A stretch of DNA of 63,893 nt, filler included, from Octopus bimaculoides (taxonomy: Eukaryota): NCBI RefSeq assembly GCF_001194135.2. It is 7 parts of 5 records of this genome, joined end to end, with 100 filler letters (N's around TTAATTAATTAA, not from the genome) between each part and the next. Parts side by side here need not be neighbours in the genome. Positions count along the whole stretch, not along the records: positions 1 to 8,376 come from NC_068982.1; positions 8,477 to 34,616 come from NC_068984.1; positions 34,717 to 47,233 come from NC_068993.1; positions 47,334 to 53,312 come from NC_068982.1; 3 more parts are not named here. One strand, written 5' to 3'. The notes beneath the pieces were generated by a model. It saw only the letters and a program-made list of their open reading frames with translations. It did no database searches and was not told the DNA's origin. A program made the position numbers and the translations under genes. Shown here piece by piece: positions 7,899 through 48,420 of the stretch (position 1 is the first letter of the stretch; every line of letters starts with the position of its first letter).

Positions 7899-8366
7899 TA
7901 TATTTATATAAAGGGCATTATTACAGAAAAATAATAACGCCACACAGTGGACTTCTCAAAATAACGACATTTAGTACCTAATGCGAGGAAAAAACAACCA
8001 ACAGAAGATGACAAACTTTCTTTTAAATAAACTTAACTGTGTTAAATTAGACCGATTTCGCGATTACTAGAATGAATCTAGATTTCGTTCATCAGCACAG
8101 TATTGTCCCAAAAATATATATAAATAAACAGAATTCTCACCTCACCAAAAACGAACACACTACGTATCCGACAGAGTAAAGGGAATGAAGTTTATCTGTA
8201 TATATCTTCATCAAAGAAGCGGGACACAGTTAAGTTTATTTAAAAGAAAGTTGGTCATCTTCTGTTGGTTATTTTTTCCTCGCATTAGGTACTAAATGTG
8301 GTTATTTTGAGAAGTCCACTGTGTGGCGTTATTATTTTCTCTAATAATGCCCTTTATATAAATATA
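7899..8366. mobile_element. Fold-back element of the AAGGGCATTA family, probably a non-autonomous Penelope-like derivative
   Basis: Inverted arms at 7899-8042 and 8224-8366 (about 143 bp, roughly 5 differences by eye) around a 181-bp spacer, embedded in (TA)n. Confidence 0.8.
8050..8095 (-). ncRNA. Degenerate type-I hammerhead ribozyme-like motif
   Basis: Minus strand reads CTGATGA-ACGAAATCTAGATTCATTCTAGTAATCGC-GAAA-TCG-GTC. It has the core order and a stem II, and differs by one base from the palindromic GAAACCGGUC stem III of Penelope-associated ribozymes. Stem I is weak and the 10.1-11.1 pair is broken. Confidence 0.5.
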
Positions 8367-8420
8367 AACGAATAATNNNNNNNNNNNNNNNNNNNNNNNN
8401 NNNNNNNNNNNNNNNNNNNN

Positions 8421-8432
8421 TTAATTAATTAA
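8421..8432. other. Artificial gap spacer TTAATTAATTAA
   Basis: The identical 12-mer sits in the middle of N runs at 8421, 34661, 47278, 53357, 58142 and 61769. It is palindromic and carries stops in all six frames. Confidence 0.9.
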
Positions 8433-8619
8433 NNNNNNNNNNNNNNNNNNNNNNNNNNNNNNNNNNNNNNNNNNNNAAATGTATACAAACATATTTACAA
8501 AGACACACGTGTGTATGCGTGCGCGCGTGCGTGCGTGCGTGGGGTGGGGGCTCCACAATCGCCATTTATTTCAATTACTCTTCTGAGGATATTCACGTAA
8601 ATCATTTTTATCATTTAAT

Positions 8620-8750
8620 CATCATCATCGTTTAACGTCCGCTTTCCATGCTAGCATGGGTTGGACGATTTGACTGAGGACTGGTGAAACCGGATGGCAA
8701 CACCAGGCTCCAATCTAATTTGGCAGAGTTTCTACAGCTGGATGCCCTTC
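8620..8750 (-). mobile_element. 3' end of a SINE/LINE with an (ATG)n tail
   Basis: Minus strand reads GAAGGGCATCCAGCTGTAGAAAC...GCGGACGTTAAACGATGATGATG, a typical retroposon 3' terminus. Confidence 0.7.
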
Positions 8751-9180
8751 TATGTAGTATATATACTACATAGAAATAAGGATAAAATCATGTTACTGAT
8801 ATCAAGTGGCCACAATGAGATAATACCTTCTGGATAAATTAAATACAAGATTAATGATTATATATATAGATTATATAGTTATATTAAAGAGATCAGGAAA
8901 TGACCTGCTTCAACATGTTATAGGAAGACGTCAAAAGGCACTGTAAGCCACAGTAAACTCCTACAAAAACACGGGTTGTAAGGAAGCAAATGAAAAGAAC
9001 AGAATAAAACTTGACAGTAAATTGTGTATTAGATCCAATTTTGAGATTAAAGCAGTATTAATAGCTTATTTCTCATCTTCAGCACAATATTCATAGAAAC
9101 ATAATCACAAATATTTACACATACCCATACGGAGTAAAATCACACGTCCATGTGCAAATATCCGCTCTTATGCATCATAA

Positions 9181-9842
9181 TAATGTCAAATTTTTACTTC
9201 TTCTTATTTCAGCCGCGTATTTTTTAACCGAAATAGCCTTTTCATGGAACTAGCTTCTTGACTGACCTTAACCAGGAAATTACCTGCAATGGACCGGAAC
9301 GCTATACTCATTTTTTTGGAGCGAATACACGCGTCCTTCACGTTTCTTTATGCGCGAATACAGACATACACACACACACACACTCACACTCACATTCACG
9401 ATTAATCTCGTTTTCATTTCGAGTGTGAGTATCCTCTGATTTGTGCCATTCTCTCTCACGGCTCATGAACTCCCAGCTATTCACCGATATCTACCAACGA
9501 GCGGCATATTCGATTTTTATTACAAATCGATCGATCAGTGACAGTTGTATTTACATGTGAGAATATTTTCGACATTCCTGCTTGGTTACGCATGTCTTTG
9601 AGGTTAGATAGTAAGAAGCTGACTCTAACCATTTCTATGTGTTTTGATACAAGCCGGCAATTTGTGTGTGTGTATGTGTGTGTGTGTGTGTGTATTCGTG
9701 TGTCTGTATTCGTGCATAAAGAAACGTGAAGGACAGGGGGTGATTTCCTGGTTTAGGTCAGTCAAAAAGCTAGTTCAATGCAAAGGCTATTTCGGTTAAA
9801 AAATACGCGGCTGAAATAAGAAGTAAACATTTGACATTTATG
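9181..9842. mobile_element. Fold-back/MITE-like element with arms of about 180-200 bp
   Basis: 9181-9285 pairs with 9740-9842, and 9332-9390 pairs with 9660-9735. The left arm has an extra ~45 bp and the loop is about 270 bp. Confidence 0.75.
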
Positions 9843-9854
9843 GTGTAGTTTAGA

Positions 9855-10079
9855 AAAACAAGTAAGGAGTCGATATCCTCCACCATCATCACTATAGGAA
9901 CTGGAGACTGTTTTAGCTGAAGAATGAATGAAAATTCCTTTGGAAATAATTCAAAAATTTGTACGAGTCCATACCTCGTAGAATTCAAGCTGTAATTACT
10001 GCCAAAGGTGGTCCTACCCCATATTAAAATACATTTGCTTGAAATTTTAAGGTGTTTCTATTATTTTGTCCAACTCCTG
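9855..10079 (+). mobile_element. Tc1 3' end (transposase C-terminus plus TIR)
   Basis: Translates to LYESIPRRIQAVITAKGGPTPY* and ends TATTTTGTCCAACTCCTG|TA. Confidence 0.8.
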
Positions 10080-10081
10080 TA

Positions 10082-10290
10082 CACACACACATACACACAC
10101 ACATACACACACACATACACACACACACACACATATGACTGGCTTCTTTCAGTTTCTGTCAACCAAATCCCCTCGCCATGACCGAGACCATAGTACAAGA
10201 CACTCTTGCCAAAGGTTCTAAGCAGTGGAACTGAACCCGGAACCATATGGTTGGGAAGCAAACAATTTCTTACCACACAACCACACCTGC
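10082..10290 (-). mobile_element. SINE family B, 5' half
   Basis: Reverse complement of the head/core (GGTTCCGGGTTCAGTTCC...GGCAAGAGTG...GAAACTGAAAGAAGCC) followed by a microsatellite. Confidence 0.85.
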
Positions 10291-10319
10291 CCCTATTTTT
10301 AATCGAAAGGATTTATGAA

Positions 10320-10900
10320 GAATCTTTACATCCGAGCTTCGGTTTTGAAAAATTGCATTTGCCTTCCTGTAATTTTTCAAAGAACGTTGAATTCGGAAAT
10401 TGTCACTTCCTCATGGAAACATGATCAGATCAACGGAGAAAGTTCTTTTACTTCTAATATTTTGAACTTGGAAACAACCTTCTCTCAAGAACTTTGATCC
10501 TCGGAATATTTGGAATCTGAGACGTCCAGTTAATATAAAGGATATGCTGAAGACATGTTTAATGGAAATTTAGCGTTATTGCTGATAATCCGTTTTGCTG
10601 ACGTACAGTGGAATGGTTAAAGTGCATTCTTTATATCAAGAAATGTAAGTCACTATTTTTATGCTGCATCTAACTCATGAATATTTTCGAAGTCTTGATA
10701 AGGATCCTGATGATATTTGAGCATGAAAACTGCTTCGATTATACGGTAACCATCTCTGTAAGAGTTCTACAGAGATCCACAAAAGCCCGAGCTATATGTT
10801 GAGGATGAAGGGCTGAACTTAAGGACGGATAAGTATAAGAAGCATGGTCAAATACTATTCAAAATTTAGGCCAAGTCGGAAGTGATCGCTAGTTAGTTGT
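10320..10900 (+). mobile_element. Heavily decayed CR1-clade reverse transcriptase fragment
   Basis: Remnants occur in the expected order across frameshifts: NFSK (DFSKAFD), SQ.T.ILG (PQGS.LG), GYAED (YADD), F.IKKCK and DKD (EKDLG). Confidence 0.4.
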
Positions 10901-11004
10901 AGTGTAGTCACAGTATGTGTTAATGTGTTGCATTCTCTGAGCAAGGATCATCGATACTTCTGCTGAAAATGAAGTTGAGTATATTGTACAAAGTGTAATG
11001 TTTA

Positions 11005-11225
11005 GAATACTTGCTTATTGTTTCACTCATTGGACTGCGGCCATGCTGGATTTAGTCTTGAGGGATTTAGTCGAATAAATCAACCCCAGTACTTTTTAAA
11101 GTTTAGTACCTGTTCTATCGGTCTCTTGAGCCGAACAACTAAGTTAAGGGGACATAAATTACACCAACACTATTATCAGGCGGTGGTTGTGGGGACACAC
11201 AAACACTAACACACACACATACACA
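11005..11225 (-). mobile_element. SINE family B-related 3' half
   Basis: Reverse complement of the tail CCAGCATGGCCGCAGTCCAATGAGTGAAAC plus the body, running into (CA)n. Confidence 0.8.
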
Positions 11226-11244
11226 TCGATAAATACGTACATTA

Positions 11245-11385
11245 TGTAGGAGTGACCGTGTGATAAGTAGCTTGCTTACCAACGGCATGGTTCCGAGTTC
11301 AGTCCTACTGCGTGGCACCTTTAGCAAGTGTCTTCTACTATAGCCTTGGGCCAACCAAATCCTTGTGAGTGGATTTGGTAGACGG

Positions 11386-11446
<61 letters not shown>

Positions 11447-12700
11447 NNNNNNNNNNNNNNNNNNNNNNNNNNNNNNNNNNNNNNNNNNNNNNNNNNNNNN
11501 NNNNNNNNNNNNNNNNNNNNNNNNNNNNNNNNNNNNNNNNNNNNNNNNNNNNNNNNNNNNNNNNNNNNNNNNNNNNNNNNNNNNNNNNNNNNNNNNNNNN
11601 NNNNNNNNNNNNNNNNNNNNNNNNNNNNNNNNNNNNNNNNNNNNNNNNNNNNNNNNNNNNNNNNNNNNNNNNNNNNNNNNNNNNNNNNNNNNNNNNNNNN
11701 NNNNNNNNNNNNNNNNNNNNNNNNNNNNNNNNNNNNNNNNNNNNNNNNNNNNNNNNNNNNNNNNNNNNNNNNNNNNNNNNNNNNNNNNNNNNNNNNNNNN
11801 NNNNNNNNNNNNNNNNNNNNNNNNNNNNNNNNNNNNNNNNNNNNNNNNNNNNNNNNNNNNNNNNNNNNNNNNNNNNNNNNNNNNNNNNNNNNNNNNNNNN
11901 NNNNNNNNNNNNNNNNNNNNNNNNNNNNNNNNNNNNNNNNNNNNNNNNNNNNNNNNNNNNNNNNNNNNNNNNNNNNNNNNNNNNNNNNNNNNNNNNNNNN
12001 NNNNNNNNNNNNNNNNNNNNNNNNNNNNNNNNNNNNNNNNNNNNNNNNNNNNNNNNNNNNNNNNNNNNNNNNNNNNNNNNNNNNNNNNNNNNNNNNNNNN
12101 NNNNNNNNNNNNNNNNNNNNNNNNNNNNNNNNNNNNNNNNNNNNNNNNNNNNNNNNNNNNNNNNNNNNNNNNNNNNNNNNNNNNNNNNNNNNNNNNNNNN
12201 NNNNNNNNNNNNNNNNNNNNNNNNNNNNNNNNNNNNNNNNNNNNNNNNNNNNNNNNNNNNNNNNNNNNNNNNNNNNNNNNNNNNNNNNNNNNNNNNNNNN
12301 NNNNNNNNNNNNNNNNNNNNNNNNNNNNNNNNNNNNNNNNNNNNNNNNNNNNNNNNNNNNNNNNNNNNNNNNNNNNNNNNNNNNNNNNNNNNNNNNNNNN
12401 NNNNNNNNNNNNNNNNNNNNNNNNNNNNNNNNNNNNNNNNNTATATATATATATATATATATAGATACATATGTATGTATGTATGTATGTATGTATTTGT
12501 GTGTCTGTCTTTGTCCCCCTACATCACTTGACAACCGATGCTGGTGTGTTTACGTCCCCGTAACCTAGTGTTTTGGCATAAGAGACCGATAGAATAAGTA
12601 CTAGGTTTACAAAGAATAAGTCCTGGGATCAATTTGCTCGATTAAAGATGGTGCTCCAGCATGGCCGCAATCAAATGAGTGAAGCAAATAAAATAATAAA
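11245..12700 (+). mobile_element. SINE family B head and tail separated by an assembly gap
   Basis: Head at 11245-11388 and tail at 12497-12700. The two parts may be different copies joined across about 1 kb of N. Confidence 0.75.
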
Positions 12701-12893
12701 AGAATATCTATATATATACATACACATATATACACATATATTCATATATATATATATGTGTGTGCATGTGTATGTATGTATGTATGTATACTTTCACAGA
12801 CCCACACACATACATACATATATATATATGCATACATATATGTATATTTATATATATGTGTGCTTGTGTATGTATGCATGTATGTATGTATGT

Positions 12894-12934
<41 letters not shown>

Positions 12935-13974
12935 CCACACACATACACATGCACACGCACTCATCCGCATATATACACACATCTAAAAATCGTTTTAAAT
13001 AAATGGGATGATATAGCGTTCACACTACATACATCTCATCTAGACTCGTATTATATCGTAAGAATAATTATATCGTAAGAATAATTACTATATAAATACT
13101 TTGGACCATTTAATTTTAAAGGAAATTATAAAGCTTTATATAAATTATTTTAATATTTTATTAAGGTTAAAAACAAAATTTTAATTAATTGTTGAAAATA
13201 TCTCCAGCTATTATTTTAACTCATGAACAGCGAAATTAAATTTCCTGACTGTTCCAGTAATAATGCTAATTAAATATCTACAGAAAAATGGAACTTTTAA
13301 TTTTTTCAAGTCACATTACTTCAGTAAACTTGAAATATCTCCATAAACGATAGACTGGTGTATAAACCTGCTTTCTGCAGTTAGGCGTAATGAAATTTTA
13401 AACGGAAATATTTGATTTCCGCAGTAAAAGAGTTAATGTATCACTAACACACTTGTCTCCTCAGAAATGTCAGCGGTTCCCACATATATAAAAAACCATT
13501 AATATTTATAATTTATGCAAAAAATGGAAAAATGCGAAAATATCTGAAGAGTTTGGTGTCAAGAGTATACATTTACTTTCGTTTAAATATGAACGATTTC
13601 ACCATCAAAATTCCTTGCTAATGTTCGTCACTAAAAGAGTTGAATACCTGGTCTTCTTCGTGAGAACTATCTCTGAACTACATGTTAAGCAATTTTGCAA
13701 AGAATAAATATAAATCTATAAGTTGGGGAGCTGGCAGAATCGTAAACACGTCTGGCGAAATGCTTGGCGGTATTTCGTCTCTGTGAATTATCTCGTGTCA
13801 TATGAAATTGGTGAATTATTGTCAATACTGCTGTGTTACTCTGTGAAAACTGTGTGAATTACTGTAAGTTGACTCTGTGAATAATTGTGATTTTTGTGGA
13901 ATTTATTGTTGTTACGTTTCACGCGAGCCGCAGCATCCCCCCCCCCCCNNNNNNNNNNNNNNNNNNNNNNNNNA

Positions 13975-14297
13975 GCTGCGGCGAGTGGTAGTGTCTCCAG
14001 TATGGAAGAAGAAGTGTGAGAATACGTATTCCGAGAGTGCCACCAGAAATTAAACCGGAGTGGTTGGTTCAACAGTGCTGGCTGCAACCAAGGAGGATCC
14101 GGAATTGGGACCAGTGGCGGAAACAAAAGTGTGCAACTGGTGAGGAGGATTTGGACTCGAAATGTGGCCTTTTGCCACATTCGAGAACATAGAAAGAATT
14201 CCCTACCAGATAGAAGTGGGGGACGAGAGAACGTTAAATGTCGTAGTCGAGAGAAGAAAACCAAATTGTTACATATGCGGGGAGAGAATATTTCAAA
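13975..14297 (+). mobile_element. L1/Tx1-like ORF1 fragment
   Basis: Translates IRIPRVPPEIKPEWLV...ERIPYQIEVGDERTLNVVVERRKPNCYICGE, the start of a CCHC knuckle typical of L1/Tx1 ORF1. It is truncated by a SINE-C. Confidence 0.55.
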
Positions 14298-14505
14298 GGC
14301 GGCGAGCTGGCAGAAACGTTAGCACGCCGGGCAAAGGGCTTAGCAGCATTTTTGTGACTTTACGTTTTCAGTTCAAATTCCGCCGAGGTCGACTTTGCCT
14401 TTAATCCTTTCGGGGTCTGTAAAGGAAGTGCTAGTTACGCACTGAGGTCGATCTATTCGACTGGCCCCCTCCCCCAAAATTTCAGGCCTTGTGCCTAGAG
14501 TAAAA
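14298..14505 (+). mobile_element. tRNA-derived SINE family C, representative copy
   Basis: GGCGGCGAGCTGGCAGAAACGTTAGCACGCC...CAGTTCAAATTCCGCCGAGGTCGACTTTGCC...GCCTAGAGTA. Other copies lie at about 15210-15395(+), 22775-22915(-), 29850-29960(+), 30475-30645(+), 33432-33650(+), 43452-43620(-), 44000-44215(+), 51470-51642(+) and 54745-54942(+). Confidence 0.9.
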
Positions 14506-14926
14506 ATGAATATATATAAGTTTGTACGGTGGTGAGCTGGCAGAAACGTTAGATACGTACACACCCGTGCATCCTGATACGGGAAAATTGCTATTTCAGA
14601 TGAAACAGTGCAACTGTTAACCTTTACATAAAATCTCCATGTAAATCCATGTAAATCCATTAACATCTGTTTTCCGCATTTCGTTTGGTATTATATTTAT
14701 TTGAATAGATTACAGAGTGTATAACCAAGGTCAGAATAGAAGTGGATGGAAAGAGTTAATTACGTTTTTTTCTGATTATCTAGCAAGCATGTAGGGTGAT
14801 TTTACAATAGTCTTTGTTACGATTACTGCATAACATACATGTATACGCCAACGAAACACTTGTAAAAATTGTGTAACTTATGCTCGAGCTGAATCGCCAG
14901 CTGGATTCTGAACTTGTATATATAAA

Positions 14927-14958
<32 letters not shown>

Positions 14959-15628
14959 CTTTAGTGTGTCTGTGTATTTGATGGAAAATAGATTTGTATC
15001 TGTGATCTGGGAAATGAGTGGGAGAAAAACAACAAATTTTCATGCTGCGTGATAATAAGCTGTCATATTTCTATATCGCTATGCTCAGCCTTTATAACCA
15101 CATGCCTCTTTATTCCTTAAGTAAGTTGAGGGTCTGCTATTATTATTTTCTGAAACAAAGATTATACGATTATACAATGTAATTAAAGAATGCAGCAGTG
15201 AACCAACAAAAGGTATGTCCTCAAATACTTTACGCACCCTGTATTTCGTCTGTCTTTACGTTCTGAGTTCAAATTCCGCCGGGGTCGACTTTGCCTTTCA
15301 TCCTTTCGAGGTCGATAAATTATGTACCAGTACTAAACGACTGCCCCCCCCCCTCCCCCAAATTTTGGGCCTTGTGCTAAGAGTAGAAAAGGATAAATAT
15401 AAATCTATACGATTACCAGTACAGAACCGACACACTCATAGACACACACAGAGACACAGCCACACACATACAAACACACAAGTTTAATATTTTGTCCATG
15501 TTCTTTTGCCACGTCATGTACCCAGTTATGTATCTATATGTACATGTGGATGAAGGTATATACATACATGTACATATATATGCATATACTCATATATTGT
15601 TTGTATCACGACAGAACGCACGCGTTAT

Positions 15629-15672
<44 letters not shown>

Positions 15673-15977
15673 CATATAAAGTATATATATATACATACAC
15701 ATATGTATGTATANNNNNNNNNNNNNNNNNNNNNNNNNNNNNNNNNNNNNNNNNNNNNNNNNNNNNNNNNNNNNNNNNNNNNNNNNNNNNNNNNNNNNNN
15801 NNNNNNNNNNNNNNNNNNNNNNNNNNNNNNNNNNNNNNNNNNNNNNNNNNNNNNNNNNNNNNNNNNNNNNNNNNNNNNNNNNNNNNGATAAAATCTTTTT
15901 AAGAATTTATCAAGTAGTCAGCGTGAAAAAAACCTCATAAGGAAAAAAACCATCATTTTTCCCCATAAATATATATA

Positions 15978-16136
15978 ATATAATCTATATAAGGGCATTA
16001 TTATAAAATAAAGCCTCACGCTTAGAGGGACTTAATAAGTCAAAACTACCAAGGAGGTTAGCTTTGAAGGTTGCATTCCCCGCGATCGGTAAACATGAGG
16101 CTTTATTTTATAATAATGCCCTTATATAGATTATAT
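15978..16136. mobile_element. Medium fold-back element of the AAGGGCATTA family
   Basis: Perfect 41-bp inverted arms (15978-16018 and 16096-16136) around a 77-bp spacer, in TA-rich sequence. Confidence 0.75.
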
Positions 16137-16204
16137 ATATATATATATATATATATATGAATGTATATGTATGTATATCGTTATGTTCGATATAGTGTGC
16201 TGAA

Positions 16205-16930
16205 GATTAACATCACTGATACAGTCCAAATCGGCCATATCAGGATTACTAAAAACAGAGCAGTACTGTTTCTGCAGTATCTTACTCATAGTTTTGTCAT
16301 TATCATGGATATTGCTCTTTTCATCAATCAGAGGCCCAACAGTGAAGACAGTGACCTTGTGTTTTTTCGTAAAAGAGAACTCTTTGGGGGTTAAGTTTGG
16401 TTTTCTCGACGCTCCATTTCTCCTCAGCTGTTCTTTGGTTATTGATGATGGTCTTCATGTATTGCTGGAGGTTATTTTTTTAATTTTTTTTATTCGAGCA
16501 GGGTGATAGCCGTCGAATTAATGTGTGGCTGTTGGCAGGATTTTAGTTTGTTAATTTTTTTGTTTGTTCTTTTATTTTTCTGATAATAGTTTTTCTGTTT
16601 TGGGAAATTCCGCACTTAGTTTTCTTCACAGCCCATGGTGGGGTGTGTTTTGTGACAGTGTCTACAAAGATCTGCCAAGATATTTTGATGCTGGAGGTGG
16701 TGTGTGTGTATGTATGAAAGACCAGTCAACATGTGATAGCTCGTTTATGATTGCATCCCAGTCGACATCATAGAGATCCACAGTATCAAATGTGTGAGCT
16801 GGAGAGAGGTCACTAGGGTTGACGTTCGGCTGGTGGAATCCCAGGTTACAACGAACCATGTCATAGTCTGAAAGAAGGGTTTTTCCCTCTGTAATATTTT
16901 GTATAGTGTTAGTGTGGCTACTAAACACAA
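16205..16930 (-). mobile_element. CR1-clade LINE ORF2 fragment (end of endonuclease to linker)
   Basis: Translates NITEGKTLLSDYDMVRCNL...DWDAIINELSHVDW and, further on, VGPLIDEKSNIHDNDKTMSKILQKQYCSVFS, matching CR1-like SDH, DW..I...L...DW and VGPL...QY.SVF motifs. Confidence 0.7.
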
Positions 16931-16945
16931 GGTTTAAAACAATCT

Positions 16946-16980
<35 letters not shown>

Positions 16981-17221
16981 NNNNNNNNNNNNNNNNNNNN
17001 NNNNNNNNNNNNNNNNNNNNNNNNNNNNNNNNNNNNNNNNNNNNNNNNNNNNNNNNNNNNNNNNNNNNNNNNNNNNNNNNNNNNNNNNNNNNNNNNNNNN
17101 NNNNNNNNNNNNNNNNNNNNNNNNNNNNNNNNNNNNNNNNNNNNNNNNNNNNNNNNNNNNNNNNNNNNNNNNNNNNNNNNNNNNNNNNNNNNNNNNNNNN
17201 NNNNNNNNNNNNNNNNNNNNN

Positions 17222-17268
<47 letters not shown>

Positions 17269-17699
17269 ATATATCTCATAAAATTGAAGAATATCTGATA
17301 TTTGACATACCATTAATAATTCTTTATACGCATAAAGAAAATTTATCGTGCAAAAATTTGTCATGTGAAAAATTCATATGATTTTCTGTAGTAATATTTT
17401 TACCGTCAATTTTTAATAATTTATTCTGAGTAAAGCTTCACCTGATCATGCCTTCTCGAAACTTCCCTCGATGAGTTTTGTTTTCCCAGTTTTTGCTGAA
17501 ATCCAAAGGCTTTTGCTCAAATCCAAAGGTTTTTGTTATTACTTTTTTTTTCACTACAAATGTTGTTTTACCAATTTCCTATTTTGATAACGATATGTAC
17601 AACTTTTCTAATGCCATTTCAAATAAAAAACGAAATGCTACCAGGGAATTCTAATTTGATATTTAAAAGCTGTTTGAAAGAAAAATTAAGTTGGCTCAT

Positions 17700-18510
17700 G
17701 ATATAGAAGAACATATTCGTCTTGGAGAATAACCTCAATATGAAGAAACTTATTACCACGTCATGTTGCACAGATTTCATCTGGAGAGAAAGGATTTGAT
17801 TGATAATTAAATTCTAGCTCAGCAACATTTAATCTCAAACCAAAATGAAAAGAACCTTACTATTGATGCTTAATCAAAAATTAAAGTAGTTTCAAAATGT
17901 CAATTATTGTCAACGCTTGTCATCCAATTACTGAATAGATTGAATATAATTCTGCAGCCTGTAGCATAGCTGATAAAAGAAAGGATTGCATCATGATAAC
18001 GCTGATCAGTGATTACTAACGAAGGTCGCTAGCAACAAGGATCAATAAAAAAAGTGGGTTCAGTTTTAAAAGAACGACATAACAGTGATGTCATTGTTAT
18101 GCAAGTTATGGTACCATTGCATATAAGCTGGTCAAAGCCATCCAGGGACAGCAAGCGGCAGTAGTAATGTACGCCACAGCACAACACAACCAATATCCAG
18201 CGTGTTTGTTCTCTATACTTGTACTTCAATTGTTACGCTTCTTAAATCATATTTTGCTGGTCGGAGGACTAAAGGTGTTACAACATGGTCTGAATTTGTA
18301 CTTCTGGCCATTTCAGCAAAGTATCATAGAAAACTTCCGGGGTTATCACGATTTCAGATTTGTGCAATTGTTACGGGTAGACCTCCAGGGTGCCGAATCT
18401 ATAAATTAGGAACCCATGTTGGCATACGCACTTATAAATGCGCATCTTTGCGTGTGAGTTCGCATGAGTTCTTGGCTAATGAATGCATTCAGGAGGTGTC
18501 TACTCCAGGA
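17700..18510 (+). mobile_element. Possible decayed pogo/Tigger DDE transposase
   Basis: FWPFQQSIIENFRGYH resembles QP.DQGII..FK..Y and LMNAFRRC resembles I.N.F.KC. There are many stops. Confidence 0.35.
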
Positions 18511-20405: not shown

Positions 20406-20466
<61 letters not shown>

Positions 20467-35908: not shown

Positions 35909-35961
<53 letters not shown>

Positions 35962-37000: not shown

Positions 37001-37444
37001 ATTTATAAATTAAAATTATACAAGATTATTAAATTATTATTATGGCTTACTTCATATTTTCTTAATTTAATTTAATTATTTATTGAATAATTATTTTCTT
37101 AGTTCATGTAATAACATTTATAATAGCTAATTGAAATAAATGTCATAATATATAATATACGCACAGCAAAACAGCAGCCTCTAATGCAATAACGAACAAA
37201 CGAATCTTAAGTTCTGAACTTATCAAATTCCGACCATCATTCCATCCCTCAACTAGGTTATTCATCACCCCCAACGCGTCACCTAATCAAGGTAAACTCG
37301 CTGTTTTCAAAAATTTGATAACAAGGTTTTAAATTATTAGCAATATTTCCATGACTTTACAACAACCTAGTAACAAGTGTTAAACTACAATCTGTGTGAT
37401 TTCTATAAATAAAATATGGTTATAAGATACTGCGATCAAAAGTC

Positions 37445-38210
37445 TTGCCTCCTTCCTACCCGCGATAAATTGTACAAACTACGTGCTCACAAAAACCATT
37501 GCAGCTTGCGGGGAGATGCGGATGGAAGGCTAGATTTTTTTTTTTTTTTTTTTTTTTTTTGTATTCGTAGGTTTTAATCATATTCTGGGTCAGTTTATAT
37601 ATAATGACGGTGAATTATGTTGGTTTGAAATTGCTGCTAGCCACCTTGATTATTTTATAATTTTCACATTGCCATTTTGTGAAATCAGTCACTGATTCTA
37701 ATGGCATTCTCCATGATATTGACAGGGTGAGTTTCTCTTTAAATGGACAAAATCCTTTCACTTTTATAAAAAGAATAAAATGTATGGAAGACTCTACAAC
37801 AAAAAAACTATGTCCATTTATGTCCATTTACACGAGAGCTCTGGGCAAAATATTATAGTGCATAACCATCCTTGAGACATAGTATATATAGTTTGGTGAA
37901 AATCGGTTGGGAATTGTGGAAATGTATGCGATCAGTGTTCCTACTCAATTTAATCACAGTCACTGATGGACAGACTAAATAAATAGACAAAATCCTTTCA
38001 CTTTTATAAAAAGATTAAAATGTATGTATGACCCTACATACAAAAAATTATGTCCATTTACGCGGGAGCTCTGGGAAAAATGTTATGGTGCATGACCATC
38101 CTCGGGACATAAGTAATATGTATGTAAAGTTTGGTGAAACCAGTTGAGAATTGTGGAAATGTATGCGTTAGTCGTTATACATACACATACTGTGATTTAT
38201 ATATACAAGA
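37445..38210 (+). mobile_element. Helentron/DINE-like non-autonomous element with a duplicated internal unit
   Basis: Two ~190-bp units at about 37745-37930 and 37985-38170. It has AAGTTTGGTGAAA...GAATTGTGGAAATGTATGCG and the end CATACACATAC...TTATATATACAAGAT, typical of DINE/HINE 3' ends. Confidence 0.5.
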
Positions 38211-38664
38211 TATGTGTGTCAGGGCGCATGACCTAATGGTTGCACTCGCGATCTCGAGATCGTGGTTTCAATTTCTGGACCACGTGGCCCGTTGTGTTTT
38301 TGAGCAAAGCACTTCATTTCACGTTGCTCTGCTATCACTTCGACGCCTGACGTGTGTAAGGCAACGTCAATTTGACGGAGAGAGTGAGCTGATGTGGAGC
38401 ATATAATTTTGATCACTATAAACGAATCATTTGTGCAGGTTGTTTAGTAAGAAATTACAGAACCATTTTTCTCAGGCTACGAATAACTACCATCATATAC
38501 GGAGGCATGTCTATAGTAACGCGTTTGCTTCCCAACCACACGTTTTCAGGTTCAACCCAACTGTGTTGCACTTTAGACAAGTGTCTTCTAAAGTCTTCTG
38601 AGTGAATTTGATAGACGGAGACTGAAAGCAGCCCATTGTATATGTGTGTGTGTGTGTATATATG

Positions 38665-38695
<31 letters not shown>

Positions 38696-38823
38696 GCGCG
38701 CGCACACACACACACACACACACATATATATACATATATGTATGTGTGTGTGTGTGTGCGTGCGTGTATATGTATATTTCTGTGTATGTATGTATGTATG
38801 TATGTATGTATGTACGTATGTAT

Positions 38824-39040
38824 ACAGGGTGTTCAGGTTAAATTTGACAGTTTGCATTAACGAAGACAAAACACAATATCCAAAAATAAAGATATTCTTT
38901 TATAAAATAAAAAAATATGAATTCGATTATGACTGAGAGATAACAGTTTTGCTCAAAGTAGCCGCAATCAGATTCTCCCTCGGTTTCAACACGGCTCTGG
39001 AATCTGGTCCATGCATTCTTCACTGTGTCCCAAAGAAGAA
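38824..39040 (-). mobile_element. Tc1/mariner 3' end fragment
   Basis: TIR-like TA|CAGGGTGTTCAGG at 38824. Minus translation DTVKNAWTRFQSRVETEGESDCGYFEQ resembles a transposase C-terminus. Confidence 0.65.
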
Positions 39041-40564
39041 CTTTAAACACTATAGCCTCAAACCGACTGAAGCTTTGCGAGTGGATTAAGTAGATGGAAA
39101 CTGAAAGAAGTTCGTTATACATTGCGAGTGGGGTGGGGGGCTCCTCATGGGCTAGTTACGATTGGAGCTCTTTTTATCACAGATCTACATTGTCAAAATT
39201 TACATACCTCTGCCATATTCTCCAGTCAACATTTATGTGTTGTGTTTAGTCAACATTTACAGAGTATAAATATATGCCTATGCAGTCCCTATGTACACAC
39301 TGCAATTCTCATATGTCAGACATCCACAGGATACACAATACAGAGTACAGGACCCGACTGTCGGGAAAAGTTGGTCTTCAGATTTTAAATATTTGTTTCT
39401 ATGGAACTAACATATTTGTTCCTGTTTATTTCTTGATATCTTGAGGCAGTTGAAATTGGATCGTCCCTCATCACAAAAGTTATATTCCTAAAACAAAATG
39501 GAGGAACGGAGTATCTCTGTTATTTACTAATTATACATACATACATAATACGTACATACACACACACATACATGACTCGAATGGATCGTGATTTATATAT
39601 ACGTACGNNNNNNNNNNNNNNNNNNNNNNNNNNNNNNNNNNNNNNNNNNNNNNNNNNNNNNNNNNNNNNNNNNNNNNNNNNNNNNNNNNNNNNNNNNNNN
39701 NNNNNNNNNNNNNNNNNNNNNNNNNNNNNNNNNNNNNNNNNNNNNNNNNNNNNNNNNNNNNNNNNNNNNNNNNNNNNNNNNNNNNNNNNNNNNNNNNNNN
39801 NNNNNNNNNNNNNNNNNNNNNNNNNNNNNNNNNNNNNNNNNNNNNNNNNNNNNNNNNNNNNNNNNNNNNNNNNNNNNNNNNNNNNNNNNNNNNCATATGA
39901 ATATATAGAGAGCTATATGTATATGTATATGTATATATATATATGTGTATGTATGTATTTGGATGTATGTATATTTGTATATATATATGTATATACATAC
40001 ATATATACATACATATATTCATACATACATATCGATGTGTGTGTGTATGTATATATATATATGTGCGTGTATGTATGTATGTATGTATACATATATATAT
40101 ACACACACACACATATACAAACATATTTGTGTGTGTGTGGTGAGGAGGGGTTGCTAGTAGCATTTTACTTTTTAGAAGATACTGTGGACAAAAATTTTAA
40201 GAATGGAAGTGATTTAGAGAGAAAAAGAACACATGAGTTGTAGATTTAGTAGGATGTTCTAGATTGTATTAATGGAGTCTGTCCTCGTTATAGTTTATCT
40301 CTTCACGTGTTGCCAAATTCTCAAGGACTTCTCACAGGACACGACTGAAAGTCGCCCGGTTTAACCCGAAATGATAAAGACATACGATAACAATATTCCC
40401 CTCATTCGGTAACAAACACGACTCTTTTCAATAGATTATTCTTATCTCTGTTCTACTAAGTTTCAAGTATCTAGTACAGCTCAGCAGTGAGTGTGAGCGC
40501 GAGTGCTACCATAAGTGTATGCCAACATTCAGCATATAAAAGAAACCATCAACAGAATACACAC

Positions 40565-40595
<31 letters not shown>

Positions 40596-40974
40596 ACCCG
40601 TCATGTGACGAATAACGCTGGGAATAAACTTTTGTTGCTGAGGGTGATACCAGGTAAATTGAAACAAGCACACTAATTAAAATTTTACGTTTTCTTTTTT
40701 TTTTTTCTTTTTTTTTTTTTTTTCGTGATGTTTATACAAATAGTGAAATGAATAAAACAAATTTTCGAAATAAAGCTTATTAAATTAATTTGAAATTAGA
40801 TAAAATTGCTTGTTTACCCATCATTTAATTTCCTTCAACTTAACCCTTATATATTCCTGGTAGCAGCCTAGTAAACTATAACCAAGGAAGATAGCTCCCA
40901 AAACATCGTAGATGTCTTGTATCGTGTGATGTGACCAAGACATCAACATTGAGTATTATTATCACCATATATAT

Positions 40975-41215
40975 ATATGCCCATCCAGCCATAGTGTTCA
41001 GGAACCTGGTTAAGGGCGTCAGCAGGAGAATCTCCAGCTTATCTTCAAGCAAAGAGATCTTTGATGCTGCCCGCCCCGTACTATAACCGGGATCTGGGTG
41101 CCAGCGGTTTGAAGAATAGTATCAGTTACATGCCAGACTCTAGCCTCCACACCCGAGTAAGCGTCACCGGAAAGTGCTGTGGTTCACACCACCCTTCTCT
41201 TTAAACGTTAAGACC
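40975..41215 (+). mobile_element. Penelope-like RT C-terminal (thumb) fragment
   Basis: HPAIVFRNLVKGVSRRISSLSSSKEIFDAARP...ASG...KRHRKVLWFTPPFSLNVKT. Confidence 0.85.
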
Positions 41216-41484
41216 AGATCTTCCTTAGTTTAGACGATTACACTCCCTTCGTACTAATAGATTCAACAAAATATTTAATAGACATACCCTGAGATAATCC
41301 TTTAGCTGTGCACCTAGTGTAAAAAAAAAATTAGTAGACAGGCCGACACTCGAGGCAGAAGCAGGATGTTCATGTGGGAGTAACACAACTTGTCCGCTGA
41401 TCGGCCACTGCTACATGGAGACAGCTGTATTCGAGGCAGAGGTAAAAACCATAGGACCCAATGGATACTCGAGCGTGCGGAAAG

Positions 41485-41671
41485 TATGGTACTGAAAAGT
41501 TCCGAAAGGTCTAGTTGAAGGCCCAACATTCCGAATTTATTACAGGGCTTAGAAAAACTGAAGCAATAAGTGAGTGAATCTGAGAGGGGAATATGTTGAA
41601 TAAAATCTTAATTAACTGATTGTAATGTATTTTCTTTTACCCAAGGCCAGGAACGTTTCATCATCCTCTCG
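41485..41671 (-). mobile_element. mariner-type MITE of about 200 bp
   Basis: Reverse complement of 48421-48634, with TIR-like GGTACTGAAAAGTTCC...GGAACGTTTCATCATCCTCTCG|TA. Confidence 0.75.
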
Positions 41672-42018
41672 TACGCATGTGAATAATTTGTAAGTGTGTG
41701 TGCGTGTAAATGAAAGTATACGGTAATGATATGCATATGCATGTGTGTGAGGGTGAAAAATATATTTCTGCATTTATGTAATTTTCTTAGGAACAAATCT
41801 ATTTCTTTTTTTAGGATTCCATTCCATTGACCTTCCCCGCTTCTAAATACATACACTTACCAACACAATATTATGTTCTCCTAGGGAGATATTCACTCAA
41901 TTACTGGCTATGGGTTGGTGCAATACAATGAAAAGTAGACCATACCAACTGATAATGGTAGTATAGAAATGGCAAGCATCAAAATAATAAGACGTAGTCT
42001 TAAAGCAATGTGTGTGTG

Positions 42019-42111
<93 letters not shown>

Positions 42112-45100
42112 TGTGTGTGCGCGCCTCGTTTATAAAATAGACATCGATTGACAATTTTACCACTTTTTACCATATTTTTTTTTTCATTTTATTCTGCCAT
42201 ATTTACTTGATTTCTTTTTTCCCTAAAATACAAAAATTGAGGAATAAAGGTGGAAATTTTCCTATCAATTAGAATTGTCAGTTTAAGGAAATTTGTTTGC
42301 TTCGAAAATGATAAATTTTAAGTTTTAAAGATAACCATTCTCGGAGAAGAAATTTCCTGTTGCGAGGCGCATATTTATGGTTAAGGTTTTCCTGACAGTC
42401 ACAATGAATGATTATAATAAAATCACTGGATTTTTTTTTTAAATTAATAAAAACAAAGTACTTTTTTTACATATATTTTTCTCTCTTTCAATTTGGAAGC
42501 TTCAATTTAGAAGGAATATACTTATTCGAATGGAAGAGAAAGATTTCAAAGCAATTTGCATACCAGGAATACTCAACGCTAGTAAAAGTTGTCAGGACAA
42601 AAGAAAGAAAATGCATTCAACGCGTTTACTAGTTAGTATACACTAACAATATATTTATATGAAATTTCAGTGCGATTAAATATGGCCTAACTACGATGAA
42701 TCTCAATTAAATAGTTTTGATCTGTCGATCAAAAATAGATTGCAATTTTTTCCTATTGTTCCGCCGTAATGAAGAATCCAGCCAAGAACTCTCCAGCACA
42801 TTTTCTACAACAAAGTTCTGCATCACTGTCCTTCCATATATTTTTTCTTTTCTATATATTTTCTGAAAAAAAAAATCTTTCTACAAACTATAGGAGTTTA
42901 TAAGGTTTCAGTTCTGGCCACGTTAAGCAGAAAAGAGAAAAATTCCTTCAGCCTAGAATAATTTCTACAGATCAGTTTCTCAGGAAATAAGACCGTTCTC
43001 TATACCACACACTAATACACCTTCGTTTCTATTCACTTGGCTCTTGTACTCCAGAGATTAGACATGTGGTGTAAAGTAGGACTGAGTTTCCGGCAAGCAA
43101 TGGGTTCAACTTTGCTTAATTTGCATCACCAAATGCCACTTGAAAAAAAGAATAAATATGGACGTCACATTTAATTGTTATTAGGACTTTATAAGCACTA
43201 ATATATCCCAATCCTTGGTTGTTACACATAATTAAAGATACATTGTTTTTATATTTATTTTTTTATTATTAATTGCACTTCCACTAATTGATGAGTAGAT
43301 AGAATAGTAAATAGCCAACCAAGAGATCGGTAGCTAGGATCCTGTTGATGCTCATGGCCTTCAGCACTTGAAATGCCTTGACCGCCCAGCCCCAAAATAG
43401 TATGAGTCACCATTGTAAACAACCGCAACAACATTAATATTGGTTTCATATTCTGGCGCAAGGCTAGAAATTTCTAGAGGAAATCGGTACTTATTTTATC
43501 GACCCCGAAAGGATGAAAGGCAAAGTCAACAACGGATGAATTTGAACTCAGAGCGTAAAGACAAACGAAATGCTGCTAAGCATTTTGCCCGGCGTGCTAA
43601 CGATTCTACCAACTCACCGTCTTCGCAACAACACTAATATTGGTAAATGTTCTTTTAGTTATCAATACTGAATCTTAGACTAAGATAATATGACTTATGG
43701 ACACTAACAATAGGACCCTAGCGGTGTGTTTCTTATAGGTAGTTTTCTCTGAGAAGAGAGAAGTGTTGTAAGCACCAGAAAAAAGCGCGGACAAATTGCA
43801 ACATTTAACAAAATTAAGCTAGTTTAAACTTTCTAAACCTATCTAACACCACAGTGAAGAAAGAAAAGGTATATGGATGTAAACTATGTTCTGTCTTCTC
43901 ATTAATGTAGAGTGTGAAGAAAAATCTCACAAATATTTGAAAAAAGGACATGTATTTGTCAGTTTGAAAACCGCCACTGTAATATGTAGGCCTGAATAAG
44001 GCAGAAAGCTGACAGAATCGTTAGCACGCCGGACAAAATTCTTAGCAGTAGTTCGACCGTCTTTACGTTCTGAGTTCAAATTCCACCGAGGTCGACTTTA
44101 CCTTTCAACCTTCCGGGGTCGATAAAAATAAGTACAAGTTGAACACTGGGGTCAATGTAATCGACTTACCCCTACACCCAAAATTGCTGGCCTTGTATCA
44201 AAATCTGAAACCAATATCTAGTCCCGAATAACACAACTAAAATACTAAAAGTCACGACAAATGTGACAACATCACAACCTCTGATTGTCTCTTTGGTATC
44301 CCCACTTCCTTTCATCATTAACTTTGGGGAGAAAAAATTTCCATAACATGTAGTTCGGAATGGACTTAAAAAAGAAACCATTTCACGTATATATAAACAA
44401 ACTGATTTGTAATACACAAGCTAGCGTGAGGTATACTGAAACGATTCAGTATTCTGAATGGATACAGTGAGAAATGAACCCATGAAATAAACTTGTAAAA
44501 TTGTAAAATCTATAACCGAACTGGAAACGTTTGTAAGTAAGAAAAATATCAAGAGTGATAACTGATAAGAAGCCACGTGTCTCTCTTTCTTTGTGGATAG
44601 GTATAGTAACCACTAAACTTGAAAATGCTTGAAAATTCAGTAAATATAACACCATATCAAAGATTGGGATATTGTTTTGATCTTGAAATCTTATCGTTCA
44701 CAAATCAATCACTTTCGGGATTCATTTTCCTATACCCATGTTACTTGCACCCGTACTTTGGCTAAACATGATTTAGAAACGTTAATCTTATACATTAAGT
44801 TGAAATTAGCTTGTTAACTGCTTCTCTTTTGGTGAATAACGCATAAATAAAACAATAAAGTATGTTTTTGTTGTTATTTAGCCCCAAGTCCACCCCGATT
44901 GAGTAGACTTATGATCAAAGCTACCCTAGCCTTGAATATCGCATTATTTTAGGTGTAGTTGATTTAGGACTACAATACCCAAAATGGGACACTTTTTTAC
45001 GGTGGAAGAGTGTATAATTTGAAAAAAATTTGCTTAATATTTCTAGCAGATCTCGCCAGTATAACAGAACCCATCATTTTCCAATTTGTATCCTTAGATG

Positions 45101-45817
45101 GTTTGAACTCAGTTCTCCATATTAATGAGACACTCATCAGTTATACAAAGTTGCGACTACTTGCAGTTAGGTATTAGTCACGGACAGCGTACAGAGTCCG
45201 AGACAGAATATTCTTAGACACTTGAGCATCCACGCCTTCCATTATAATTCCATTTACAAAGATGCACTATAAGAACGTAAATCGACTCCAGCCTTTGACT
45301 GGTATATTTTATCTTTCACATGCTGAGGCAGCGCCTTGAAGAATTTTAGTCGAATGAATCGACCTCAGTACTAATTCTTTAAAGTATTGGTACTTATTTT
45401 AACGGTTATATTATCTGATATCTATCAGAGGCCGGTGAGTTTTATTGAATCATATAGAGAATACGGAATATGTAGTTGTGACAGTCATGCATATTCGAGC
45501 ATTTCGTTGACATCATTAACACCATCGTTAGAAGCATGGCCACCACAACATCCTGTTGAGTCTTGCATGTGAGGAGCATTTAATTGAACGCTAATCCGGT
45601 TTCAACCCTCCTGCTTCAACGACTTTCAATTAAGTCGTTAATGATACTCTGTTAATAAATATCACCCCACCAGGCTAAAATCACTTATCTTATGCCTATT
45701 ATGCCTATTTAGGGAACAACCTTTTGACTGAACAGCTTTTCTATGCCATGAATATATGGCCGTGGCTCAACTGCTACACACACACACACACACAAAAACA
45801 CACACACAAACACAAAC

Positions 45818-45879
<62 letters not shown>

Positions 45880-46999
45880 ATACACACACACACAGAGTCT
45901 TTCCTCTAGCTAGAAAACTATTCATTGTCTACATTTCAAGCTTGCCCAATACACCGAGTTACGTATCACAACTAGACTGGACTACCCGGAACATCCAATT
46001 CCCTTCTCGTCAAACCCAAACTCCACACCAAACATCATGCTTGATATTACTCATGTTTTTCAATCAATTTCGTCAACTCTATCCATCTCCTACAAATGTG
46101 TTACTCAACCGTTTCTCCATGAAATCCACTAGACCAAGAGACTCTTTTCCTTTCCAGATTAGTCCGAGAAACAAAATTCACCAGATTAAATAAGAGAAAT
46201 ACATGCGATATTCTGCAATCAATGGAATTGATTACGACACTTCTTTACAAAGGTGGTCTTGTTTAACCAACAAACCAAATTCGAATCTTCACCAGTCTTA
46301 GATATTTCTATTTATTAAAAATTCGGGAAGCCTTGCCTTCTTTGTGTGGTTTCTTCCTGCAGACATCCCTTGAATATTTTCAGATTTATTTTTGCATGCT
46401 AGTGGTAAGCACCCATCATATAGGCCCCCAAAAAGTTATTTCGCCTAAAACATTTCGAAGGATTTTTTTTTTTAGTAAGGTTGTACAAGCACTTCATGCA
46501 ATGGGTAAGCAGAAAGTGGTGTAATATATCAGACTTTGTCTCTATGTAATGTAACAGTTATTGTCTGAACAGGTGTTTAATCGAGGAAATATAGCACTTT
46601 TTAGCTTTAATACAAAGCCACATAATTTGGATGAAGAAAGGTTGTGGTTAAGAAGCTCACCTTCCAGCCATGTGGTTTCGGGTTCAGTCTCACTACACGG
46701 CACCCTGGGCGTCATCTAATACAACACCGAGCCGACCAATATCCTGTGAGTGAATTTGCTAGAGGTAGACTGAGTGGAAGCTCATCACGCGCGCGCGTGT
46801 AGTATAGTATTCTGTGAAGGTAAGATCAACAAAAAAGTATTTCATCTGGTCAGAGCTGAATATTGTTTAATAAACACAGTATATATTTTTGTGAGCTATT
46901 AATAGTTTCATGCAATGAAAACGACACAGCATTTTATAACACGTCCGGTGCATTCATGCCATCTTCAGTCTGATTATGTACTGGACTGAGGAATAATTT

Positions 47000-47233
47000 A
47001 CGAGCGTTTTTTTTTTTTTCAATTTAAAAATGCATGAAGACATAAAACACATTGACAAAATGTTTTATGGTATTTAAAAGAGAATTTCTTGCTCTACAAG
47101 ATAGTGTTTGGATTTTAAAATTTCATTGATTTATGTGTATCTTCAGATCACTAAAATGAAATGTCGAGAGGACAAGACTGAGCATTTTCGACATCATTTG
47201 CTTTTTGCATTTAATCGAGGTGTTAAGACCGCT
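47000..47233 (+). mobile_element. mariner 5' end, truncated by a gap
   Basis: ATG at 47156 gives MKCREDKTEHFRHHLLFAFNRGVKTA, a typical mariner N-terminus. Confidence 0.8.
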
Positions 47234-47333
47234 NNNNNNNNNNNNNNNNNNNNNNNNNNNNNNNNNNNNNNNNNNNNTTAATTAATTAANNNNNNNNNNN
47301 NNNNNNNNNNNNNNNNNNNNNNNNNNNNNNNNN

Positions 47334-47383
<50 letters not shown>

Positions 47384-47694
47384 ACCAACTGTCAATTGGC
47401 ATTCATTTACACCTAAGCAACCTGGAGCAATATAAAATCTATGTACCTTACTCAATCCAGATTTGAACCCACAGCTTTCAGATCGTGAATCGAACACTGT
47501 TAGCCAGTGGGAGAAGCGCCGTCACACACGAGCACGCACACATAAATAGGTGTACTTATATCCCTACTCCTGCTTATTTTTCCATCCTTCTTATTTTCAT
47601 TCTCTTCATCAAATCGAGGCCAATAGGAGTAACTCGAGCTCCGAAGATGCTTGTCCTCCACACGTCCCTGTCCAATGTGCCAGAGCATTTATAT

Positions 47695-48011
47695 GCACAC
47701 ATACATACATACATACATACATACATACATACATACATACATACAAGCATACATAGACATACATACATACATACACACACATACATACAAACATACATAG
47801 ACATAAATACATACATAAACACATACATACACAAATACATACACACATACATACATACATGCATACATATATACACACACATACATACAAACATACATAG
47901 ACATAAATACATACATACACACATACATACACAAATACATACATTCATACATACATACATACATGCATACATATATACACATACATACATACAAACATAC
48001 ATAGACATAAA

Positions 48012-48045
<34 letters not shown>

Positions 48046-48060
48046 CATACATACATACAT
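47695..48060. repeat. (ACAT)n-based compound satellite with a ~100-bp higher-order repeat
   Basis: The block ATACATACAAACATACATAGACATAAATACATACATA recurs at 47781, 47881 and 47985. Confidence 0.9.
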
Positions 48061-48110
48061 ATATAAAGGGCATTACTACAGAATATTCTGTAGTAATGCC
48101 CTTTATATAT
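48059..48110. mobile_element. Perfect 52-bp palindrome, smallest AAGGGCATTA family member
   Basis: ATATATAAAGGGCATTACTACAGAAT|ATTCTGTAGTAATGCCCTTTATATAT, centred at 48084/48085. Confidence 0.85.
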
Positions 48111-48420
48111 ATATAAACGAATAATCATAAATTTTCAGGGATTAGCATTGAGTTGCTTCTCCAACATACTGAAAATTTAGAAATAGCAGTCAAAGAACTA
48201 CTGATTCTAAACTACAAATTTTCATACTGAACTTGGCAAAATTGTTAATTATTAATTCTATTATTAATTGACGATTCCCTGCCCTTATTCTTGTATATAA
48301 ACGAATAAGTATATTCTTGGGAATAGAAATTTCCCTTACGAATTTTTTTACACACTAGCTTCCTGATAAAATTCTTGTAAAAGATTTTTATCCTATTTTG
48401 ATTTTACATACATACATACA

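What the first reader, a model, noticed from the sequence alone, without database searches (positions are those of the whole stretch)
7899..48310. Palindromic AAGGGCATTA family in (TA)n tracts: candidate snap-back, ribozyme-associated Penelope-like system
Seen: three elements share the terminus TATA(T)AAGGGCATTAYTA and its inverted copy. They are 7899-8366 (143-bp arms), 15978-16136 (41-bp perfect arms) and 48059-48110 (perfect 52-bp palindrome, no spacer). The symmetry extends into copy-specific TA-rich flank (TATATTTATATA in one, ATATAATCTATAT in another), and no TSD can be separated from the TA tract. Two copies are followed by ATAAACGAATAA, and at 48281-48309 the motif GCCCTT..TATATAAACGAATAA recurs as a direct repeat, like tandem pLTRs. 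Known: Penelope-like elements carry minimal hammerheads in their pLTRs and often have inverted 5' repeats. Inference: these are not cut-and-paste MITEs but non-autonomous Penelope-like retrocopies whose palindrome is regenerated at insertion by snap-back or template switching, with a preference for (TA)n.
Basis: partly seen in the sequence, partly recalled or inferred. Interest (0 to 1): 0.75.

Follow-up and report, generated by a model that had tools for sequence, protein, structure and literature searches.

The report
Hammerhead retrozymes with Penelope-type insertions
The three mirror-image repeats are stumps of an abundant family of roughly 500-base non-coding repeats that carry a predicted self-cutting RNA motif; they were likely pasted into the genome by the enzyme of a Penelope-type jumping gene, which likely copies the RNA twice, from two fixed start points, to build the two arms at each insertion.

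Summary
The inverted repeats are real, but the 'copy-specific flank' is subfamily sequence. All three elements are 5'-truncated copies of ~490-512-nt ORF-less units (subfamilies A, B, C) that also occur as head-to-tail tandems and carry a type I hammerhead with compensatory pairs (10 of 19): metazoan non-LTR retrozymes. Copies end at two fixed AU-rich sites about 100-110 nt apart, each after a hairpin. In 32 of 33 resolvable two-armed insertions one arm ends at each site; arm lengths and junctions differ copy by copy. A 14-15-bp target duplication exists, and one empty site in two other organisms holds the 14 bp once. This is the known Penelope signature (inverted arm, one-sided tail, TSD). 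It excludes MITEs, and in 13 of 27 cases a single fold-back. The 48281-48309 repeat is the 15-bp TSD of a nested fourth family, not tandem pLTRs. No autonomous partner shares sequence (0 of 50 GIY-YIG loci), although one Neptune-type copy shows the same end pattern. Circular RNA and cleavage are untested; RNA-seq showed only low two-strand signal. The scan noted similar elements before, in this genome and others.

The parts
7899..8224 (-). Element 1 (subfamily A), long arm: 5'-truncated piece of the 512-nt unit, 3' end at start site T1, running into (TA)n/(TACA)n
   Evidence: 95-97% identity to the best other copies
8035..8103 (-). Type I hammerhead motif (CUGAUGA 8095-8089, GAAA from 8059); stem III and the cleavage triplet are altered in this copy, intact by motif search in 23 of 30 subfamily A loci
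8224..8376 (+). Element 1, second (inverted) arm; begins at the predicted ribozyme cut (1 shared base), passes T1 at 8349-8354, enters the tail at 8367 and is cut by an assembly gap
15887..16052 (-). Element 2 (subfamily B), arm with tail; reaches the T2 hairpin, then an N gap
16052..16136 (+). Element 2, T1-ended arm with an internal deletion of about 44 nt near 16097 that limits the perfect arm to 41 bp; followed by (TA)n
48059..48085 (-). Element 3 (subfamily C), T1-ended short arm; 2-nt shared junction gives the 52-bp palindrome
48084..48406 (+). Element 3, T2-ended arm with tail (T2 at about 48387-48394), interrupted by a nested family D insertion; (TACA)n lies in direct orientation on both sides of the whole element
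48125..48293 (.). Nested two-armed insertion of family D (another hammerhead-bearing repeat with two termini; homology to A/B/C weak)
48110..48124 (+). 15-bp TSD of the family D insertion, left copy
   Evidence: single in other subfamily C copies
48294..48308 (+). 15-bp TSD of the family D insertion, right copy

Best explanation
These are truncated copies of ~500-nt non-coding, hammerhead-motif repeat units (non-LTR retrozymes) with one arm ending at each of two fixed sites and a 14-15-bp target duplication, likely inserted in trans by a Penelope-like reverse transcriptase/GIY-YIG endonuclease. Shown: unit, tandems, covarying hammerhead fold, two termini, one-of-each pairing, variable junctions, TSD and one empty site. 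Inferred: the enzyme (probably a dimer) nicks both strands of AT-rich DNA 14-15 bp apart; each nick primes cDNA on the RNA at an AU-rich stretch after a hairpin, one at T1 and one at T2, helped by 0-5 nt of pairing; both cDNAs run 5'-ward for variable lengths, often through the ribozyme site and round into the previous unit (circular or uncleaved multimer template); their ends are joined with 0-4 nt of microhomology or short filler.
For: Units of 512, 490 and 497 nt are collinear at 60-74% identity, longest ATG frame 33-55 aa; tandem spacing 492/492/490; long copies run back into the previous unit, none into an ORF. Hammerhead: 10 of 19 pairs change on both sides, 94.6% of cells paired, slid controls 24-41%; circular folds z = -10.4, -5.8, -5.3 and 26-36 kcal/mol better than antisense. 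Ends: 43 of 92 distinct insertions are two-armed; 32 T1+T2, 1 T2+T2, 0 T1+T1, 5 other, 5 hidden by gaps (my classification); in the sample chosen only by the T1 motif 9 of 9 resolvable are mixed (p = 0.002). Spacing of 16 inverted pairs among the 100 listed matches ranges 16-638 bp. TSD; empty site skipping 335 bp with 14 shared letters in contigs of two other organisms. A Neptune-type coding copy (L140) shows the same tail-on-one-arm pattern and CC(C)TT+AT ends. Literature: inverted 5' copy, one-sided tail and TSD are PLE hallmarks (PMC8557442, PMC3846280); a PLE protein nicks and extends both strands and starts at two internal RNA sites (PMC11167929).
Against: No autonomous element sharing sequence was found: best nhmmer E = 0.76 over 50 GIY-YIG loci, of 2390 first-look candidates. 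Rfam gave no hammerhead hit. Hammerhead rows were picked by a pairing filter and are related, so pairing percentages are inflated. RNA-seq: 90-168 reads per ~12 million records, both strands, no pile-up of ends. The two arms of one insertion are not more alike than other copies (at least as alike as the best other copy in 4 of 17), so 'one RNA molecule' is not shown. Junction microhomology is modest (17 of 32 junctions with 0-4 nt, mean 1.6 against 0.77; 15 have filler or were not resolved). Only 1 of 35 coding loci tested showed both ends clearly, and none gave a clean TSD. Queries for subfamilies B and C contained the tail, which biases those sets against T1+T1.
Confidence: 0.82

Rival explanations
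1. They are simply 5'-truncated pLTR stumps of an autonomous Penelope-like element whose ORF-bearing copies are hidden in assembly gaps.
For: Same insertion signature as PLEs; the assembly has gaps at many element ends; hammerhead-to-terminus distance resembles that of coding copies.
Against: Every copy that reaches far enough runs back into the previous unit rather than into an ORF; the closed unit is collinear in three subfamilies at 60-74% identity and folds as a stable circle.
Confidence: 0.08
2. One reading: one cDNA snaps back (or self-primes) and copies itself to make the inverted arm.
For: Element 3 is a perfect spacer-less palindrome; some junctions sit in RNA hairpins; self-priming was proposed for PLE inverted junctions (PMC3846280). 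In 14 of 27 cases the short arm is contained in the long one.
Against: In 13 of 27 measured insertions, including window elements 1 and 2, each arm has sequence the other lacks; some tail arms never reach T1; arms stop at fixed element sites, with a direct, not inverted, TSD outside.
Confidence: 0.06
3. Cut-and-paste MITEs of a TA-targeting DNA transposon.
For: Inverted termini, TA-rich flanks, high copy number.
Against: Arm spacing 16-638 bp, unique junctions, asymmetric ends, many one-armed and longer-than-unit copies, 14-15-bp TSD, strand-specific RNA structure.
Confidence: 0.02
4. A LINE-type enzyme mobilises the retrozyme by twin priming, and the PLE-like look is convergent.
For: 14-15-bp TSDs and 5' inversions are known for L1 (recalled); no PLE partner found by sequence.
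Against: L1 twin priming gives non-overlapping inversions and a fixed 3' end at the RNA tail (recalled); here both arms overlap and start internally at two fixed sites, as in PLEs (PMC11167929).
Confidence: 0.02

Closest known systems
Metazoan non-LTR retrozymes (Cervera and de la Pena 2020, PMC7229834; review PMC7761336; Li et al., bioRxiv 10.64898/2026.07.22.740005)
   Same: ORF-less, low-GC (30-34%) tandem unit with one type I hammerhead, stable predicted circle, TSD longer than 4 bp, PLEs in the same genome.
   Different: Unit (490-512 nt) is a little above the 150-450 bp first described but within the 51-972 bp of the preprint; most copies are dispersed sub-unit stumps with inverted arms; two fixed hairpin-marked termini give a direct PLE signature, whereas PMC7761336 says retrozymes show no motif that points to their mobiliser; circRNA not shown here.
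Insertions of endonuclease-bearing Penelope-like elements: inverted 5' pLTR, one-sided tail, TSD, microsatellite bias (PMC8557442, PMC3846280)
   Same: Outward-facing inverted truncated arm, tail on one end only, partial tandems, (TA)n bias, hammerhead upstream of the termini.
   Different: No ORF; tail about 100-110 nt instead of 30-40; TSD 14-15 bp against 8-10 bp in the rotifer examples.
PAc Poseidon element in vitro (Frangieh et al. 2024, PMC11167929)
   Same: Two internal RT start sites that define the tail; both target strands extended; AT-rich targets, including the element's own sequence (compare the nested family D insertion); ribozyme cleavage not needed.
   Different: PAc starts lie close together in an AC-rich stem-loop without homology to the target and showed no strand difference; here the sites are AU-rich, about 100-110 nt apart, overlap the TSD by 0-5 nt, and pair one-to-one within an insertion.

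Membership tests
non-LTR retrozyme | Type I hammerhead in each unit | tested here: met
   Core motifs and three stems with compensatory changes; no Rfam hit; window copy 1 is damaged; two B tandem units lack the core
non-LTR retrozyme | Short unit occurring as tandem copies | tested here: met
   492/492/490 spacing; longer-than-unit copies in A and E
non-LTR retrozyme | No ORF, low GC | tested here: met
   Longest ATG frame 33-55 aa, GC 0.30-0.34; LTR, PBS and PPT were not searched for
non-LTR retrozyme | Self-cleavage of the RNA | not testable with these tools
   Needs an in vitro assay
non-LTR retrozyme | Abundant circular or monomeric RNA in vivo | tested here: inconclusive
   Three cDNA libraries, 6% read: 90-168 reads, both strands, no end pile-up; end-to-start joints also exist in tandem DNA
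PLE-type insertion (works like) | Inverted 5'-truncated copy of variable length | tested here: met
   43 of 92 insertions
PLE-type insertion (works like) | Tail on one end only | tested here: met
   32 of 33 resolvable; tail longer than the 30-40 bp described
PLE-type insertion (works like) | Target-site duplication, AT-rich or microsatellite target | tested here: met
   one empty site
Autonomous Penelope-like element | RT plus GIY-YIG ORF | tested here: not met
Derivative of a named PLE family | Sequence homology to an autonomous pLTR | tested here: inconclusive
   0 of 50 GIY-YIG loci; sample small and gap-ridden
MITE / TIR DNA transposon | Constant TIRs and size, fixed short TSD | tested here: not met

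The most novel reading that the evidence does not exclude
This retrozyme superfamily is a minimal circular substrate for Penelope enzymes: two hairpin-plus-AU landing sites about 110 nt apart each load one half of a dimeric RT/endonuclease, so that every two-armed insertion is obligate double target-primed reverse transcription on one RNA. Thousands of copies would then record the PLE integration reaction and settle how PLE inverted ends and tails arise.
Probability: 0.4. Interest if true: 0.62.

Novelty: new variant of a known kind. Interest (0 to 1): 0.42.

Why it matters
That PLEs mobilise animal retrozymes has rested on co-occurrence and pLTR likeness. Here a closed, ORF-less retrozyme shows the full PLE insertion signature, with an empty site. 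The near-strict pairing of the two start sites and the even split in which arm is deeper favour double target priming over the self-priming proposed for PLE inverted ends, and name a 500-nt RNA with two defined sites for a direct test. The parts (retrozymes, tails, inverted arms) are all known, so this adds mechanism, not a new class. Such stumps are also easily mis-annotated as MITEs.

Tried and rejected
Rfam found no hammerhead family in element 1 or in five loci. A Pfam family for the PLE helix-turn-helix was not in the library; GIY-YIG was used instead. No homology of the units to 50 GIY-YIG loci; the long 'open frames' there were mostly N gaps. PLE fragments beside L003 and L201 are neighbours, not joined to the unit. 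Idea that RT runs off a ribozyme-cut 5' end, suggested by element 1 and three other ends: rejected, only 1 of 60 copies chosen by the post-cut motif ends there, and that one is element 1. Arm-to-arm identity did not show a shared template. No run on record as RNA was listed as holder; laid RNA reads were few. Automatic arm mapping was polluted by microsatellites and used only to locate junctions. In one search three of 30 loci failed anchoring and one (L041, with a 14-bp TSD seen) was mis-anchored. The 33-of-34 p value printed belongs to an earlier count and is not used. Family D pairing is not counted because the query had that layout. The B unit used for folding has a copy-specific inverted segment, so its z score is less reliable. 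Paper searches found no description of these families; Repbase, Dfam and the repeat library behind PMC13282606 could not be searched, and no supplements were read.
Full report
Observation. The window is a pack of seven stretches and the three elements lie on three of them. The arms are as described: 143-144 bp at 97%, 41 perfect bp, and a perfect 52-bp palindrome. One variant of the terminus has 1501 exact matches in the 2.34-Gb genome against 1 for the reversed control.

The unit. Searching the genome with each element gave 921, 2384 and 2662 first-look candidates, 40 scored each. The copies are pieces of a permuted unit: 512 nt (A, element 1), about 490 nt (B, element 2), an A-related subfamily C (element 3) and a 497-nt subfamily E. 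A, B and E are collinear at 60-74% identity, have no ATG frame over 55 aa, and occur as tandems (492/492/490). Copies that extend far enough run back into the previous unit, never into an ORF.

The ribozyme. On the strand that ends in GCCCTT each unit has CUGANGA...GAAA...UH with three stems. On 12 rows, 10 of 19 pairs change on both sides and 94.6% of cells pair, against 24-41% for slid controls; the rows were chosen by a pairing filter and are related, so this is supportive, not a probability. Stem III is short and palindromic. Units folded as circles score z = -10.4, -5.8 and -5.3, and 26-36 kcal/mol better than their antisense. Rfam gave no hammerhead match. The copy in element 1 has an altered stem III. 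Activity was not tested.

The ends. Copies stop at T1 (hairpin, GCCCTT, AU run) or about 100-110 nt further on at T2 (hairpin, ATCC(C)T, AU run). Of 92 distinct insertions examined, 43 have two outward-facing arms; many others are cut by gaps. By my classification: 32 pair T1 with T2 or a tail-bearing arm (four of these with the tail cut by a gap, one with a slightly longer T1 end), 1 is T2+T2, none T1+T1, 5 have an arm ending elsewhere (two about 45 nt past T2) and 5 are hidden by gaps, element 1 among them. The B and C queries held the tail and are biased; in the 26 insertions chosen only by the T1 motif, 12 are two-armed and 9 of 9 resolvable are mixed (p = 0.002). Inverted pairs among the 100 listed pattern matches lie 16-638 bp apart (16 pairs). 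Junctions differ between copies; 17 of 32 show 0-4 shared bases (mean 1.6, null 0.77) and 15 have filler or were unresolved. Measured from T1, the T1 arm is deeper in 13 and the tail arm in 14 of 27; in the 13, neither arm contains the other, which one folded-back cDNA cannot give.

The target. Thirteen of 27 two-armed loci have a non-dinucleotide direct repeat of 12 nt or more at both ends, against 27 of 702 mismatched pairs; the clear ones are 14-15 bp. For L076, contigs from two other organisms skip 335 bp with 14 letters fitting either side, that is, the empty site holds the target once. In element 3 the repeat at 48110-48124 and 48294-48308 is the 15-bp TSD of a nested two-armed insertion of family D into the AU-rich stretch after T1; other C copies carry it once.

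Partner and RNA. The genome has many GIY-YIG frames (150 scored of 2390 candidates), mostly C-terminal with a CxxC linker, which I read as Neptune-type from recalled definitions and PMC8557442; Pfam confirms GIY-YIG at the end of one. None of 50 loci shares sequence with the units. One coding copy, L140, has an inverted arm with a ~40-nt tail and a tail-less forward end, both ending in CC(C)TT- or CTTT-plus-AT motifs; of 35 coding loci tested, six showed an inverted repeat and none a clean TSD. Only 1 of 60 copies ends at the predicted ribozyme cut (13 of the 60 meet a gap further upstream), so the template is likely a circle or an uncleaved multimer. RNA-seq gave 90-168 reads per run on both strands with no pile-up, as expected from read-through of dispersed copies and uninformative about small circles.

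Mechanism. Shown: unit, fold, two termini, pairing, TSD, empty site. Inferred: a PLE enzyme nicks both strands 14-15 bp apart, primes one cDNA at T1 and one at T2, and the two are joined at their truncated ends. Whether both use one RNA is open. This matches the in vitro behaviour of PAc (PMC11167929, main text read) and argues against self-priming as the general source of PLE inverted ends (PMC3846280, passages).

Comparison and verdict. The elements meet the sequence criteria for non-LTR retrozymes (PMC7229834, passages and Discussion; PMC7761336, passages; bioRxiv 10.64898/2026.07.22.740005, parts 1-3 of 5) and insert like PLEs (PMC8557442, passages). Passages of an octopus repeat paper do not mention ribozymes (PMC13282606). 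Five searches found no account of these families; repeat libraries and supplements were not seen. Earlier notes of this scan describe similar elements (none by sequence); I read them after the main analysis.

Noticed in passing
window 48125-48293; L062-L071, L075, L082-L090: Family D: another abundant hammerhead-bearing repeat (motif in L085 near 1366) with two termini about 110 nt apart and two-armed insertions in (TA)n; homology to A/B/C is weak.
   Followed up: partly
L040 (G000:C5:66.745-66.748 Mb): One insertion holds about 3.6 units on one arm plus over one unit inverted; two consecutive units share the same deletion of the hammerhead core, which suggests repeated copying of one template or local duplication.
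   Followed up: partly
L078:1854-1919 (minus): A further hammerhead-like motif unrelated in sequence to A-E.
   Followed up: no
L005, L020, L016, L029, L074: Minor end sites: about 45 nt past T2 (two copies) and about 20 nt past T1 (three copies).
   Followed up: partly
L091-L140: At least eight distinct GIY-YIG retroelement families; several 3' ends carry hammerhead-like cores and run into (TA)n.
   Followed up: partly
L031 and L032: Two unlinked B insertions have junctions 2 nt apart but opposite T1/T2 assignment, hinting at preferred joining points.
   Followed up: no
window 7655-7840 and 8620-8760: Other abundant repeats (SINE-like) flank element 1 and recur beside many loci.
   Followed up: no
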